Assembly: GCA_951406725.2 (NCBI GenBank)
Contig: OX597820.1
Coordinates: 62,620,001 to 62,684,000, forward strand
Direction: 5' to 3'
DNA: 64,000 nt
Source: Octopus vulgaris
Taxonomy: Eukaryota
Shown: positions 1-61,677 of the stretch, one piece after another
Position numbering within the stretch: position 1 is the first letter of the stretch
How the letters are laid out: every line of letters begins with the position of its first letter
The notes under the pieces: model-generated
Told to the model about the DNA's origin: nothing
The model's database searches: none
The model's input: the letters and a program-made list of their open reading frames with translations, nothing else
Program-made: the position numbers and the translations under genes

Positions 1-765
1 TATAATAAAGCTTTAAAAGATAGTGGTTTTAGCGAAAAAATAAAATATACACCTATCACCAGCCCAACAATAAGGAAAAGGAATAATAGAAATAGGAAGG
101 TCATCTGGTTTACGCCCCCTTACTCACCCGAGGTGGCCTTCAATATAGGTAAATATTTCCTAGCACTGATAGATAGACATTTTCCAGTTAACCATGCTTA
201 TAGGAAACTCTTCAATAGACACAATTTAAAAATTAGTTTTAGTTCAACTACCAATTTTAAAAACATAATCAATCATAACATACAAAAAACACAAGAAGAA
301 AACAGCTGTTCATGCAGGAATAAAGAATTGTGCCCGCTAAATGGAGCTTGCATGTCCAAGACCATCATATATGAAGCTACCGTAAACTCTATAACCACTA
401 AAGACACCGTTTCGACGAAGAAATACGTGGGCCTGACAGAGGGTAATTTCAAGGCCAGGTTCAATAACCACACTTTGAGCTTTAGGCACTGGAACAAAAG
501 AAAAGCGACACAATTATCCAATCATATTTGGTCTTTAAGAGATAAAGGTGTCGATTATAACATACAATGGAAGATTTTGGCCAGATGTAAGCCCTATACT
601 AACGGCAGCGGAAGGTGCGGTTTATGCGACATGGAGAGATGGCTTATCTGGAAAAGCAGCTTAGACCCTACCACATGTCTAAATACAAGGACAGAGCTTT
701 TCGGATCATGCCCACATGTGACTAAATTTCTGTTACGTTTTTGGTCCCCTAAAGAAAACGGATAG
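1..765 (+). CDS. C-terminal part of a Penelope-like retroelement ORF (linker plus GIY-YIG endonuclease), probably Neptune/Nematis-like; runs off the window start
   Basis: Frame 1 is open from base 1 (YNKALKDSGF...RNRKVIWFTPPYSPEVAFNIGKYFLALIDRHF). It has a Cys-rich linker (CSCRNKELCPLNGAC), a GIY-YIG motif (IIYEATV...KYVGLTEGNFKARFNNH) and a C-terminal CGLC...E...LNTRTELFGSCPH, all typical of PLE endonucleases. Stop at 763-765. Confidence 0.9.
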   Translation, partial: YNKALKDSGFSEKIKYTPITSPTIRKRNNRNRKVIWFTPPYSPEVAFNIGKYFLALIDRHFPVNHAYRKLFNRHNLKISFSSTTNFKNIINHNIQKTQEENSCSCRNKELCPLNGACMSKTIIYEATVNSITTKDTVSTKKYVGLTEGNFKARFNNHTLSFRHWNKRKATQLSNHIWSLRDKGVDYNIQWKILARCKPYTNGSGRCGLCDMERWLIWKSSLDPTTCLNTRTELFGSCPHVTKFLLRFWSPKENG

Positions 766-949: not shown

Positions 950-1118
950 TCAAATAGCCAGATAACCGAAGAGATGGTGTTGTGGATTTCCACTTCGGCA
1001 TCTGAAACTCAGAGTTTTATCTTGACTACCGAGTAATGTAACATATTGTATAGATAAATTTCCTCTATTTACATAATATTGAGGTCTCTTTCTTTCTTTT
1101 GTTATCTTACCGTTTTAT

Positions 1119-1120
<2 letters not shown>
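950..1120 (+). mobile_element. Penelope pseudo-LTR (3' tail) with a degenerate hammerhead (961-1021), ending in (TA)n
   Basis: Lies downstream of the PLE ORF. Reads GATAA-CCGAAGA-GATG...CATC-T-GAAAC-TCAGAG-TT-TTATC, is homologous to the inverted copy at 1381-1556, and abuts the TA microsatellite. Confidence 0.8.
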
Positions 1121-1157
<37 letters not shown>

Positions 1158-1191
1158 TATACATGCATAAATATACATATATATATATATG

Positions 1192-1237
<46 letters not shown>

Positions 1238-1276
1238 CATACACACACCAATATATATATATATATATATATACAT

Positions 1277-1321
<45 letters not shown>

Positions 1322-1380
1322 AATACATATACATACACGCACATATACACACATACATGTATTCATATGTATATATATAT
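1121..1380. repeat. (TA)n/(CA)n microsatellite between two converging pLTR tails
   Basis: Read directly from the sequence. Confidence 0.95.
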
Positions 1381-1556
1381 TGTTAAAAATGTTAAGACAA
1401 CAAAAGAAAGAAAGATACCTCGATATTATGTAAATACAGGAATTTATCTGTAAATGCAATATGTGACAATTATTCGGCAGCCATGATAAAACTCCGAGTT
1501 TCGGATGCCGATGTGGAAATCCACGCCGCCATCTCTCTAGTTACCCGGCTATTTTT
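1381..1556 (-). mobile_element. Inverted Penelope pseudo-LTR copy with a degenerate hammerhead (1485-1545)
   Basis: The reverse complement aligns to 950-1120. The core reads GGTAA-CTAGAGA-GATG...CATC-C-GAAAC-TCGGAG-TT-TTATC, so the CUGANGA box is mutated. Confidence 0.8.
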
Positions 1557-1566
1557 TCGATGGCCG

Positions 1567-1627
1567 GATAACTGAAGAGATGGCAGCGTAGATTTCCACC
1601 TCGGTATCCGAAACTCGGAGTTTTATC
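1567..1627 (+). ncRNA. Type I minimal hammerhead ribozyme with intact catalytic core
   Basis: Stem I is GATAA(1567-71)/TTATC(1623-27). Core CTGAAGA is at 1572-78. Stem II is GATG/TATC around an internal hairpin, with one extra C. GAAA is at 1610-13. Stem III is quasi-palindromic (AACTCGGAGTT) and the cleavage triplet is GUU. Confidence 0.8.
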
Positions 1628-1630
1628 ACA

Positions 1631-1812
1631 GCTGTGTGGTAAGTAGCTTGCTTACCAACCACATGGTTCCAGGTTCATTCTCACTGCGTTGCACCTTGGG
1701 CAAGTGTCTTCTACTATAGCCTCGGGCCGACCAAAACCTTGTGAGTGGATTTGGTAAACGGAAACTGAAAGAAGCCCGTCGTATCTCTCTCTCTCTCTAT
1801 CTATCTATTTAT

Positions 1813-11098: not shown

Positions 11099-11257
11099 CA
11101 GGCGTGGCTGTGTGGTAAGAAACTTGCTTCCCAATGACATAGTTCCAGGTTCAGTTCCACTGCGTGGCACCGTGGGTAGGAGGTCTCATCTATAGTCGCG
11201 GGCCGACCAAAGATTTGTGAGTAGATTTGGTAGGCGGACACTTAAAGAATCCTGTCG

Positions 11258-11288
<31 letters not shown>

Positions 11289-17297: not shown

Positions 17298-19681
17298 AGT
17301 AATTCTCATGTGTAAAGTAATGTTCAGTTTATGCTATATAATTTCTTACAGTTCTGTTATTAATCATTTGCACTTTAAACGATATAACATGACGTTCTTT
17401 AGGCGAATGGAGTTAAGGATTAATTATCTGTAATGGGCTTTAAAATTTAAATGATTTATTGAGCTCGTAAAATATACTATTCAAATTTGTTTTTAAATGC
17501 AAAATATATGTTGATATCTTCTGTAACATCCAGAATTCAAAAGTATCAAATTTATTTACTTTATAAATATGAATTTTGTCCGTTTATACTGATGACTGAA
17601 TTAAAGTATAATATTATTTTACGATTGATTTTGAATTATGGAAACATAAATAAAAGTTGTATATTTTACTTTATTGGTGTAATAGTTTTTACGAAGAGTG
17701 TCATCAGTTGCCACAGGTAATGTATGACGTATGAGAGATATATAATCTTCTCTGTCGTCTTTATGAAGATCACTGAAAATATTTTTTTAAATAAATTTCA
17801 GATTTACTCATATTTATCCCCTTAATAAAGACGACACAGTAGCATATTTCGCCATCACGCACACCATAAATTACTTCGAATCAACTCAAAATAAATTCTC
17901 ATGAAACATTAACTACACTTTAATCAACACCACCGAAACCAAATTAGGCAATGTGCAATCATATTTCAGTTTCAATTATGTTTAGGATAAGATGCGTAAT
18001 TCCTTTCTCAGTGTGGAACAATAGTATATCCGTAATATAATGATTTAATGGTATTAACGATATATAATACTTTAAATTAACTCTGCGTGATATTATTGAA
18101 TTTTATCCTACCATAACTAAATCTCTTAAAGCTTTAGTTTTCGCCAGCAGCGTCGAACAAATCAGTGAATTTTATATTAAGATAATTTTGCACAGAAAGA
18201 AAACCCTTTCGTTTTTTTGACAACTCATCCTCAGGGAAAAAAGAAACCTAGATGAATTGACTCGTATTTCTATGGGATAAAACATTGCAACGGAAATATG
18301 CAAAATTATTAGAATTTGTGTCTTGAACTATTTGCATAATATGATTTTTATGTTGGAAGATTGAAACAGAGATGCCCTTTTAGTTATGACGAATATATGA
18401 TTTCGAATTTCAAAGTAAGACATCCCACAAAATTAGATAGTGAATAAAAGAGAAAGAATTATTGCCTTAATACATTAATGTTTTGCGTATTACCTTAAGT
18501 TAACATAAGAGTATCTTCTGCATACACCGAAAAGCAAATGAAATACTGTTTAAATAAGAAAACTGATCATATACCACCTAACATTAGTAAACATATATCC
18601 TACATTATATTAGGATGAAGCGATATTCATTACTGTCTCTCGTTGTTGTAATAGCACTCTTCATATAAAATGCCTTTGCATATAAAATACAATTTATTAC
18701 ATACTTTATCTCAATCATTAAAATAGTACTACAAATATTTTATGGTCTCATCGCGGCTCCTGTTTAAAAACAGGAAAAGATAATGCCAACGACTTCCTTA
18801 ATTTAATATCTTTTGATGGGCTATATGATTATTTTTGCAGGACCGCATCATTTAAAATAAACTATGCTTGATGGACGAATTTTGTAATCTCAGTTAATAC
18901 GTTAATTTTCAAAAGACATTCCAATAGCAGTTATGAGTTTTCCTTTCCTACCAGTAATTACATAGCTTGAAATAATTACCCACATAAACATAATTGCCTC
19001 TCAGAAGCTGTAATATATTGTATCAAACTGCAATAAGATAGTAATTGTATGCCAAATACATATCGGATTCACCAAGAATTGCGCCTCTATCAACATATTC
19101 AGAATTAAGATTTTATATTATCATTTCCAAGAGGCGAATCAACAGAAACGTTAGAACACTATATGCAATACCTTGTGATGCCTATTCTAATTTCTCAGGT
19201 TCTCTGTTCAGATCTCATCCAGGTTAAATTTACGTTTCAGCGTTCCGGGTTCCATAAATGTAAAACACCATTATGGTGGTGGACTCTCAGAATCTTTAGA
19301 GAGTAGGACGGCATGTCATGGTGATATTTGCTCCACTTTGCGCTCAGAATCCAAATCTCGTCGTGAATTTGATATCCGTTAGAAGTATCCGTCTCTAGCA
19401 TAAATACCACCAACTTGTGTCTTCTTTGGTTCGCTATAGCTCAGCGAGCTCTTTTGCAAAACTTCGAGTTAGATGTCTAGTTTCAGAGTGCCCTGTTCCA
19501 TCTTGTGACGTTGGCCCTATAAAAGATTATGGACACTACTATTTTTTTAATAAGAAAACACCCTCGGCGATATTGCAAATGCTAAGTCGAACAAGAAGCT
19601 ACAAACTTGAAAGTCAACTTTCGTTTCGAATTGTTTCTGAAAATCATGTGTAAATTAAACATTAGTTTATTTTAAGACATA

Positions 19682-22779: not shown

Positions 22780-22979
22780 TAGGAGTGGCTGTGTGGTAAG
22801 TAGCTTGCTTACCAACCAAATGGTTCTGGGTTCAGTCCCACTGCATGGCATCTTGGGCAAGTGTCTTCTACTACAGCCTCGGGCCGACCGAAGCCTTGTG
22901 AGTGAATATGGTAGACGGAAACTGAAAAAAGCGCGTCATATATATGTACATATATATATATATGCACACACACGCACAC

Positions 22980-32412: not shown

Positions 32413-33770
32413 TAATGGGTTTAACTTTATTGTTTAGCTTGATAATTAAACAATTAAGTATGGCATATACAGATAAGATAGTACCCCTGGAGTGGAATTC
32501 ATCACTGAAAGACATACCTATCCTACCAAAAAAAGAATTCAAGATTAAACTGATAAATAATATAAAGGTTTTCATGAATAGACTTATAGAAAGCATACTA
32601 CTATAATAATGAAAATACTATAGACGTTAATAATACAGACAATAATAAATTTATTAGGAATGTATTTAAATCTAGGGAAGAACCACCGTACAATAAAGAA
32701 ATGCAAAACTTGAAAGACAAAATTTGGGGAATAGTAAAAAAATCCAGAATTTTCTAAATACCCGAACATGCATTATAATTATCTTAAAAACCTAGCTATC
32801 AAGATAAAAGAACTGAGAAATACCGAATGAATCTTTGTACAATCTGACAAAACCAGAAACGTATATAGATTAGATATAGAAATATATAATAGTTTACTAG
32901 AGAAAGAAATCAATAAAAAATATAAAATAGTTCAAAATAATACTTCAGAGAAAATAAATAAGTGTTATAAAGAAATTATGACGAATTATGAACTAGATAA
33001 AAAAACAGAACCCTACGTGCCATTGCACCCAAGGATAACGCTAAAAGACAATAAAGATAATTTCTATGCAGACCCTAAAGTCCGACTAATATGCCCATGT
33101 AAGTCAGACCTAGGAAAACTGAGTAAATTAATTTTAGATAAATATATAAACAAATTAAATAATTTAGGTCACCTAAAGTTATGAGGCAGTAGAATGAAAA
33201 CTTTACAATGGTTTAAAAATATAAAAAACAATAAGGAATATAAGTTCATACAAATAGATATTGATAATTATTATGCTTCCATAAATGAAATAGTGTTGAA
33301 TAAAGCCTTGATATATGCTAAAAATATAAAAAGAATGACGATGGAAGAAATTTAGTCTAAATGGCAAGAACAACGCTCATTAAATACAAAAATAATGGGC
33401 GAGAAAGGACACAAGGGATTATTTTGATGTACTTATGGGAGCGCCAGATTTAGCAGAGGTAACCGACCTAGTTGGAATATATTTGCTTTCTGAATTAGAA
33501 ATAGTAAATTTAAATATAGAGGGGAGGGCTTATATAGGGATGATGTACTTTTAATAGCAAAAAATTGAACAAACAGAACTCTTGAAAATTATTAAAAGAA
33601 ATTATACAGGTTTTTAAAAAATTATGGGTTAGAAACTACTATATATAATGAACATTATAATGTAAATTTTGTAGATGCAAATTTGAATATTGCTACAGGG
33701 TTAATATAGCCTTTCCATAAACTTAATGAAAACCTAAAATACATAAATGCAGATAGTAATCACCCCACGT
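32413..33770 (+). pseudogene. Decayed Penelope-like reverse transcriptase (Neptune/Nematis-like)
   Basis: Contains RITLKDNKDNF..PKVRLICPCKSDLGKLSKLILD, FIQIDIDNYYASI, FDVLMGAPDLAEVTDLVGIYLL, LYRDDVL, VNFVDANLN and YINADSNHPP, with stops and frameshifts. Confidence 0.85.
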
Positions 33771-61278: not shown

Positions 61279-61677
61279 TCTTTACTCTTTTACTCTTTTA
61301 CTGTTGACTGTGGCCATGCTGGAGCACCGGCTTTTATTCGAGCAAATCGACCCCAGGACTTATTCTTTGTAAGCCTAGTACTTATCCTATCGGTCTCTTT
61401 TTCCGAACCGCTAGATTACGGGGACGCAGACACACCAGCATCGGTTGTCCGGCGATGTTGAGGGGAGAAACACACAAACGTATACACGCACACACACACA
61501 TGTATATACTTATATACAGCGGGCTTCTTTCAGTTTCCGTCTACCAAATCCACTCCCAAGTCTTTGGTCGGCCCGAGGTTATAGTAGAAAATACTTGACC
61601 AAGGTGCCACGCAGTGGGACTGAACCCGGAACCATGTGGTTGGGTAAGCAAACTACTTACCACACAGCCACTCCTAC
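61279..61677 (-). mobile_element. SINE family 1, full length
   Basis: Reverse-complement match to 22780-23246. Confidence 0.85.

What the first reader, a model, noticed from the sequence alone, without database searches (positions are those of the whole stretch)
950..1627. Three hammerhead ribozyme copies after a Penelope ORF: a converging pair across (TA)n, then a fold-back pair with one intact core
Seen: one hammerhead motif occurs at 961-1021 (+, U4->C), 1485-1545 (-, CTAGAGA) and 1567-1627 (+, intact CTGAAGA/GAAA, stem I GATAA/TTATC, GUU site). The last two are adjacent and divergent, forming a hairpin with ~70-bp arms. The first two pLTR tails run into the same TA microsatellite from opposite sides. 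All three have one extra nucleotide between stem II and GAAA, and a stem III with a loop too short to fold alone. Established: PLE pseudo-LTRs carry minimal hammerheads with palindromic stem III that can act as dimers, and PLEs often leave inverted pLTRs. Inference: these are repeated (TA)n-targeted insertions, and copy 3 may still self-cleave.
Basis: partly seen in the sequence, partly recalled or inferred. Interest (0 to 1): 0.7.

Follow-up and report, generated by a model that had tools for sequence, protein, structure and literature searches.

The report
Penelope retrotransposon ends, copied twice
The three self-cutting-RNA motifs are the ends of two Penelope-type jumping-gene insertions, a known layout; across the genome the two arms of such insertions almost always have one long and one short end and share the same mutations, so both arms are likely copied from one uncut RNA.

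Summary
The three hammerhead motifs are real, at the stated coordinates. They belong to Hydra-clade Penelope-like elements that insert into (TA)n. Copy 1 is not decayed: U4C is the fixed state of a very young family (1,325 exact long-end junctions genome-wide). Copies 2 and 3 are one head-to-head insertion of an older sister subfamily, not separate insertions. Copy 3 is the least likely to cleave: it folds worst and is masked by a 75-bp hairpin. Inverted ends, a one-sided tail and (TA)n targeting are published. Added here: in 69 of 69 resolved two-armed young insertions one arm ends about 107 nt past the ribozyme cut site and the other about 36-40 nt past it. Arms share subfamily variants (39 shared, 6 discordant; shuffled 5.5 and 79). 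Long arms often stop at the short start site, and both arms of stubs often stop together just upstream of the ribozyme. Simple fold-back of one arm is excluded. Likely mechanism: both cut DNA strands prime on one uncleaved RNA. Earlier unchecked scan notes on other DNA reached a similar idea. Cleavage and transcript ends are untested.

The parts
1..765 (+). 3' part of the ORF (thumb, linker, GIY-YIG endonuclease) of a 5'-truncated copy of a very young Hydra-clade PLE; the copy begins about 85 nt upstream of the window
   Evidence: GIY-YIG E 0.014, below Pfam cut-off; 150 of 150 scored hits 100% identical over 168 aa
766..951 (+). 3' UTR / upstream part of the pLTR, with a short AT-rich 10-mer array
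952..952 (+). Position u-64, where arms of the family most often stop at their 5' side; likely transcription start (inferred)
   Evidence: 10 of 95 stops, from 8 loci
954..1029 (+). Hammerhead copy 1 with extended stem I; U4C core, native to the young family; predicted cut after 1016
1017..1123 (+). Tail of copy 1 ending at the long end (u107); the family's short end maps to 1052-1056 (u36-40)
1121..1379 (.). Degenerate (TA)n tract, target of both insertions
1379..1552 (-). Long arm of the older two-armed insertion: hammerhead copy 2 (1485-1545, core broken) plus long tail
1553..1634 (+). Second arm of the same insertion: hammerhead copy 3 (1567-1627, core intact, stems weakened); tail lost
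1631..1785 (+). 5'-clipped SINE-like repeat joined to copy 3 over about 5 nt of shared sequence; likely a later deletion removed copy 3's tail and the TA tract
   Evidence: the label SINE is recalled, from no call

Best explanation
The region holds the 3' end of a young Hydra-clade Penelope-like element and, across a TA tract, a two-armed stub of an older sister subfamily, and such two-armed insertions are likely made when both cut DNA strands prime reverse transcription on one uncleaved element RNA. Shown from sequence: family, two fixed 3' ends (about 107 and 36-40 nt past the ribozyme cut site), one of each per insertion, 3-4 nt of TA-like match to the target at both ends, shared variants between arms, microhomology at the head-to-head joint. 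Inferred: the endonuclease cuts both strands of (TA)n; one end primes at the short site and the other at the long site about 70 nt behind it; the trailing copy either stops at the short site or displaces the first copy; the two cDNA ends are then joined by microhomology or end joining. Priming in the 5' pLTR would give stubs such as copies 2 and 3, both arms running off the RNA's 5' end just upstream of the ribozyme; priming in the 3' pLTR would give arms that carry ORF. The ribozyme must be uncut or religated in the template, and copy 3 itself is likely inert.
For: Long+short in 69 of 69 insertions with both ends resolved and in 49 of 49 outward-facing pairs from position-ordered lists on contig C1 (overlaps the first set). 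Same pattern in older subfamilies. Arms share minor alleles 39 times, differ 6 times; shuffled 5.5 (max 19) and 78.7 (min 51). 15 variants private to one insertion lie in both arms. Long arms stop at u41-60 in 10 of 68 at risk (7 after removing 3 artefacts) against 3 and 2 in the flanking bins. 5' stops of paired arms correlate (rho 0.51, p 0.003, n 31; within 3 nt 9 against 2.3 expected). Long stubs u50-110 beside short-ended main arms hold sequence absent from the partner (L105, L118, L129). Microhomology of 3 nt or more in 17 of 46 flush joints, 6% by chance. Of 43 distinct stops between u97 and u-320, 3 lie at u1-10 and 29 lie past the cut site. In vitro an anole PLE cuts and extends both strands, starts at two internal sites and does not need ribozyme cleavage (PMC11167929).
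Against: Shared variants show the same source locus, not the same molecule. 5 of 28 informative pairs have at least one discordant site, two or three matching different known haplotypes; in one array the arms differ at a site throughout. In the ORF-selected set near-equal arm lengths were not significantly enriched (5 against 2.3, p 0.075). About a fifth of young loci show one arm only (24 of 109). One possible short+short case among older copies (L284). In vitro no difference in start site was seen between strands, and priming there needed no homology (PMC11167929). The transcription start is inferred from DNA ends only.
Confidence: 0.62

Rival explanations
1. Two RNAs, one asymmetric complex: each strand primes on its own RNA molecule, usually from the same active locus, and the long/short rule comes from two unequal protein sites or an ordered first and second step.
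For: Discordant variants in 5 of 28 informative pairs; arms differing throughout one array; earlier unchecked notes report arms from two parents or families. Explains the 69 of 69 rule equally well.
Against: Does not by itself explain long arms stopping at the short start site or arms stopping within about 12 nt of each other away from the common stop (-182/-194, -395/-407).
Confidence: 0.25
2. Self-priming or fold-back: one arm is made from RNA, folds back and is recopied into the second arm (close to the proposal in PMC3846280).
For: Explains shared variants and near-equal 5' stops; some joints are near-palindromic.
Against: The recopied arm must be contained in the first. The short-ended arm reaches further 5' in 28 of 69 and by more than 5 nt in 16 of 31, while the long arm holds 70 nt that the short arm lacks.
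Confidence: 0.07
3. Ribozyme-dependent circle: dimer cleavage and religation make a unit-length circular RNA, which is the template for both arms and for tandem arrays.
For: Core and stem III palindrome are kept across subfamilies while free positions vary; arrays of up to 4 units exist; units of one arm in the C3 array are alike. A religated junction cannot be told from an uncut one in DNA.
Against: Units within one arm of the C1 array differ in nested fashion; the sharp stop at u-64 points to a linear 5' end that a circle lacks; the youngest family carries U4C, which lowers activity in vitro (PMC3088659, passage).
Confidence: 0.12
4. One reading: three separate targeted insertions, with copy 3 still an active ribozyme.
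For: Copy 3 has an intact core and GUU site.
Against: Two-armed stubs are the family's commonest form (31 of 51 loci of this subfamily); copy 3 folds worst and is masked by the hairpin.
Confidence: 0.05

Closest known systems
Hydra clade of C-terminal EN+ Penelope-like elements, e.g. Hydra-1_Obim, Penelope-13_HM (PMC8557442, section 11 and supplement files S1, S2)
   Same: Unit under 3 kb (2,589 nt), RWK, DKT, CxCX5C, CxxC and CxH motifs, (TA)n targets, type I hammerhead. Several listed members share the ACTC-N-GAGT stem III; Penelope-13_HM is listed with an inverted 5'-truncated copy and a hammerhead on each strand.
   Different: Distinct family: by eye 28 of the first 44 residues match Hydra-1_Obim and the ribozyme differs. 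Stem II is longer, with an unpaired C/U on its 3' side that none of the listed Hydra rows shows; the young subfamily has U4C.
Inverted pLTR plus optional one-sided tail of EN+ PLEs (PMC3846280, PMC8557442 Fig. 2 legend)
   Same: [quoted passage not shown]
   Different: Described there as optional or 'often', 30-40 bp; here about 70 nt and strict in all resolved young two-armed insertions. The self-priming model proposed there does not fit.
Poseidon element of Anolis carolinensis in vitro (PMC11167929)
   Same: Two internal start sites that bound the tail; both strands cut and extended; ribozyme cleavage not needed.
   Different: No coupling of start site to strand was seen in vitro and no homology was needed; here the sites are paired one each per insertion and match the target over 3-4 nt.
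Metazoan PLE minimal hammerheads (PMC4209133)
   Same: Type I, long helix II, palindromic helix III, G10.1-C11.1; opposite-strand pairs 100-700 bp apart already noted.
   Different: Their extra nucleotide lies between 9 and 10.1 (5' side); here it lies on the 3' side, before G12.
L1 twin priming (recalled; PMC2837659 seen as search listing only)
   Same: Both target strands prime on one RNA, giving an inversion.
   Different: L1 arms cover different parts of the RNA; here both arms start 70 nt apart and usually overlap, which needs displacement or a second RNA.

Membership tests
Hydra-clade PLE | Single ORF, RT followed by C-terminal GIY-YIG, unit under 3 kb | tested here: met
   Unit 2,589 nt, one long frame; model pLDDT 93.8 with telomerase RTs among top fold matches; weak GIY-YIG hit. 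Pfam found nothing for the full protein at E<=0.1.
Hydra-clade PLE | RWK and DKT motifs | tested here: met
   MRWKAF at 36, SDKTKNL at 113, conserved in 118 aligned proteins
Hydra-clade PLE | CxCX5C linker; CxxC and CxH around the conserved E and N | tested here: met
   CSCRNKELC at 557, CGLC near 660, CPH near 691
Hydra-clade PLE | Absence of the CCHH motif | tested here: inconclusive
   Not seen by eye inside the GIY-YIG core; not aligned to CCHH-bearing references
Hydra-clade PLE | Insertion into (TA)n | tested here: met
   Nearly all terminal arms run into TA-type repeats; 1,325 and 1,029 exact junctions
Hydra-clade PLE | Phylogenetic placement with named references | not tested
   Only a by-eye comparison with Hydra-1_Obim as printed
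Type I hammerhead ribozyme | Core C3 U4 G5 A6 N7 G8 A9 / G12 A13 A14 A15.1 / U16.1 H17 | tested here: inconclusive
   Met in copy 3 and in 81 of 81 and 35 of 35 older copies at position 4 (selected by a fuzzy core pattern); copy 1 has U4C; copy 2 is broken at G5 and A6
Type I hammerhead ribozyme | Three stems supported by covariation | tested here: inconclusive
   Stem I and the first 4 pairs of stem II are invariant across three subfamily groups; one two-sided change and several one-sided or breaking changes further out
Type I hammerhead ribozyme | Self-cleavage after H17 | not testable with these tools
   Only contigs were available

The most novel reading that the evidence does not exclude
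Penelope-like elements insert by a twin-priming step of their own: two reverse transcriptases start 70 nt apart on one capped, uncleaved RNA, one from each strand of a double cut in (TA)n, and the trailing one stalls at or displaces the leading cDNA. This one rule would explain the one-sided tail, the inverted pLTR and the solo fold-back stubs, and would make the hammerhead a separate off-switch at the transcript's 5' end that the most active family has weakened (U4C).
Probability: 0.5. Interest if true: 0.72.

Novelty: new member of a known kind. Interest (0 to 1): 0.5.

Why it matters
The locus itself is ordinary debris. The family is useful: how PLEs form their tandem and inverted structures is named as an open task in PMC8557442, and a very young family with over a thousand near-identical insertions turns a qualitative remark ('tail often at one end') into a strict rule with two mapped start sites, a candidate transcript start and a short intact ORF. 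That makes the one-RNA versus two-RNA question directly testable in vitro. It also offers a natural test of whether a PLE needs an efficient ribozyme.

Tried and rejected
Rfam: no hammerhead model matched. DNA search with copy 1 returned nothing because its words are too common. Copy 1 as a decayed copy: rejected. A helix pairing the two start sites at the base of the tail: not supported, 11 of 43 tails have a mismatch there and only 1 a compensatory pair. Pile-up of 5' ends at the ribozyme cut site: not seen (one search held duplicates, one search removed them). Fold-back of the long arm: rejected. Cap-derived extra G at the u-64 stops: seen in several, but some could be templated; unresolved. 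RNA evidence: no RNA holder listed on record; presumed-RNA contigs cover the ORF and one bridges 1551-1655, but contigs show no ends, strand or level. Homodimer prediction for residues 1-490 gave no answer. The 2017 paper on small PLE hammerhead variants and the 2004 paper on Penelope enzymes were not held, so precedent for the 3'-side extra nucleotide or for this mechanism there is unchecked.

Full report
Coordinates. u counts from the predicted ribozyme cut site (u1 is the first base after it; for copy 1, u0 is window 1016). G000 is the window's own genome. The host is probably an octopus, inferred from the protein's likeness to Hydra-1_Obim and from earlier notes; I did not identify the assembly.

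1. Observation. The three motifs are at the stated places with the stated cores. Copies 2 and 3 match at 65 of 75 positions and fold as one hairpin of about -121 kcal/mol. Stem I continues for 5-6 pairs after a bulge, stem II has about 13 pairs with mismatches, and stem III is a palindrome with a free centre whose self-duplex is -7.4 (copy 1) or -9.7 kcal/mol. Rfam missed the motif.

2. The element. The ORF at 1-765 found 150 hits among 150 scored, all 100% identical over 168 aa, from 22,404 candidates. A full unit is 2,589 nt from cut site to cut site, with one long frame of about 708 aa from the first Met. It carries the motifs that PMC8557442 (section 11, read whole) gives for the Hydra clade, and they are conserved among 117 unnamed homologues. 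The predicted fold is confident and its best matches include telomerase RTs. The window's copy is 5'-truncated at u1489, about 85 nt upstream of the window.

3. Copy 1 is native. Its 76 nt are identical to the commonest form among fetched loci (215 of 340 motif hits, which include repeated fetches). Position 4 is C in 87 of 89 copies of this group; the only common variant inside the motif is at the free position N7. Older subfamilies have U4. U4C lowers activity in vitro yet is tolerated in a viroid (PMC3088659, passage). Across the three groups the core, stem I and the first four pairs of stem II do not vary, while N7, the palindrome centre, the extra nucleotide and upper stem II do; there is one two-sided change at majority level, and the young family has lost one pair in the stem I extension and one in stem II. 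This fits selection on a ribozyme in the lineage with some weakening in the youngest branch, but it is not strong covariation, and the copies were picked with a fuzzy core pattern.

4. Two fixed 3' ends. Terminal arms end at u104-110 (long) or u29-40 (short), then run into TA repeats; both ends match the target over 3-4 nt. Genome-wide there are 1,325 exact long junctions, 1,029 exact short junctions and 148 read-through copies, with no hits for the reversed controls.

5. One long, one short. I fetched all but about 13 of the 150 ORF hits and mapped 109 loci. 85 have a head-to-head joint; in 69 both ends were resolved, and all are long+short (39 and 30 by side). The 16 unresolved ones are cut by the fetched edge, mutated or lack a terminal second end; none was called long+long or short+short. 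Using only the listed coordinates on contig C1 (100 long, 68 short), 51 neighbours lie within 15 kb; 49 face outward and all 49 are long+short, where independence would give about 35% long+long and 16% short+short (partly the same loci). In 98 loci of older subfamilies (11 duplicates left out) the script called 57 two-armed: 39 long+short, 13 long+unclear, 1 short+unclear, 3 long+long, 1 short+short. On inspection the three long+long calls chain in neighbouring pieces (one is the window itself), 12 of the unclear ends are alignment overrun into TA, one ends at u4, and L284 stays a possible exception.

6. Same source. At 25 polymorphic sites, 71 arm pairs share the minor allele 39 times and differ 6 times; 1,000 shuffles gave 5.5 and 78.7. 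23 of 28 informative pairs agree fully. Over 53,889 nt of overlap, 15 variants private to one insertion lie in both arms and 91 in one arm, so wholesale conversion between arms is unlikely. The discordant cases show that templates sometimes differ.

7. Both arms come from RNA. The long arm reaches further 5' in 41 of 69 and the short arm in 28. Since the long arm holds 70 nt missing from the short one, neither can be a plain recopy of the other in those 28. Three long stubs cover only u50-110 or less beside short-ended main arms. This contradicts simple fold-back, the nearest published proposal (PMC3846280, passages). Joints show 2 nt or more of microhomology in 30 of 46 flush cases (17% by chance), and 29 of 75 have inserted bases.

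8. Where arms stop. In 71 long arms from 70 loci taken from the first 100 C1 junctions, stops cluster at u41-60 (10 of 68 at risk; 3 are artefacts of subfamily divergence) and at u-40 to -99, where several more are such artefacts. With diverged continuations filtered, 39 of 95 stops fall at u-55 to -73 and 10 at exactly u-64, an A after TTC that resembles an initiator (motif recalled). In 31 pairs with a partner found, the two stops correlate and 9 lie within 3 nt (2.3 expected). The same test on the ORF-selected set was not significant. There is no excess of stops at the cut site. Because both start sites lie downstream of the cut site and cDNA crosses it, the template was uncut or religated.

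9. The window. Copies 2 and 3 stop at about u-62 and u-70, so they are a stub of this class from the older subfamily, in which 31 of 51 loci are two-armed. Copy 2 is the long arm. Copy 3 should have had a short tail; it is joined to a clipped SINE-like repeat over about 5 shared bases, and other loci show the intact order tail, TA, repeat, so a later deletion is likely. The young element then inserted into the TA tract on the other side, with one visible arm.

10. What is known. Inverted truncated copies, a tail at one end, and (TA)n targeting: PMC8557442 (passages, section 11, supplement files S1 and S2) and PMC3846280. Opposite-strand hammerhead pairs and low dimer activity: PMC4209133 (parts 1-2 of 4). 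Two internal start sites, both strands extended, ribozyme dispensable: PMC11167929 (parts 1-2 of 4 and passages). Also seen: bioRxiv 10.64898/2026.07.22.740005 (part 1 of 5), PMC6765202 and PMC13282606 (passages). Searches listed no paper whose title or abstract states a strict long+short rule or priming of both arms on one RNA for PLEs; the library lacks most subscription papers, and the supplements of PMC11167929 were not read. Earlier unchecked notes of this scan propose the one-RNA idea and stops in front of the ribozyme on other DNA; my reading was recorded before I saw them, and they are not independent support.

11. Verdict. A new family of a known clade with a mildly variant ribozyme; the locus is inert debris. 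The family-wide rule is well supported. One RNA versus two RNAs from one locus remains open at about 0.6 to 0.25.

Noticed in passing
G000:C1:57208775-57222588 (L144-L148): A four-unit arm whose units differ in nested fashion (more variants toward the 3' units); the 3' haplotype recurs at C2:70.54 Mb. It may be a source array and argues against one circular template for that arm.
   Followed up: partly
G000:C3:37225756-37236108 (L163-L167): Multi-unit array in which the plus-arm units carry a variant that the minus arm lacks.
   Followed up: partly
G000:C2:102041899-102046118: Four old-subfamily hammerheads on one strand at 1.37-1.43 kb spacing, shorter than the 2.59-kb unit; possibly a deleted tandem derivative.
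   Followed up: no
L097, L018: Arms that end only 4 nt after the cut site, directly in TA repeats: a rare third start site.
   Followed up: no
window 32843-33766 and 18014-18328: Two more distant PLE ORF remnants, about 33-35% identical to the family protein.
   Followed up: no
window 11111-11260, 22792-22941, 61514-61664: Further copies of the SINE-like repeat found at 1631-1785; in other loci it sits in the TA tracts beside PLE ends.
   Followed up: no
L031:9873-9915, just upstream of the window: About 43 nt of unmatched sequence between the TA tract and the 5' end of the young copy.
   Followed up: no
window 1585 and 1590: A-to-G differences in presumed-RNA contigs inside the hairpin; they also match the subfamily's usual bases and appear in a run of unknown kind, so editing cannot be told from other copies.
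   Followed up: no
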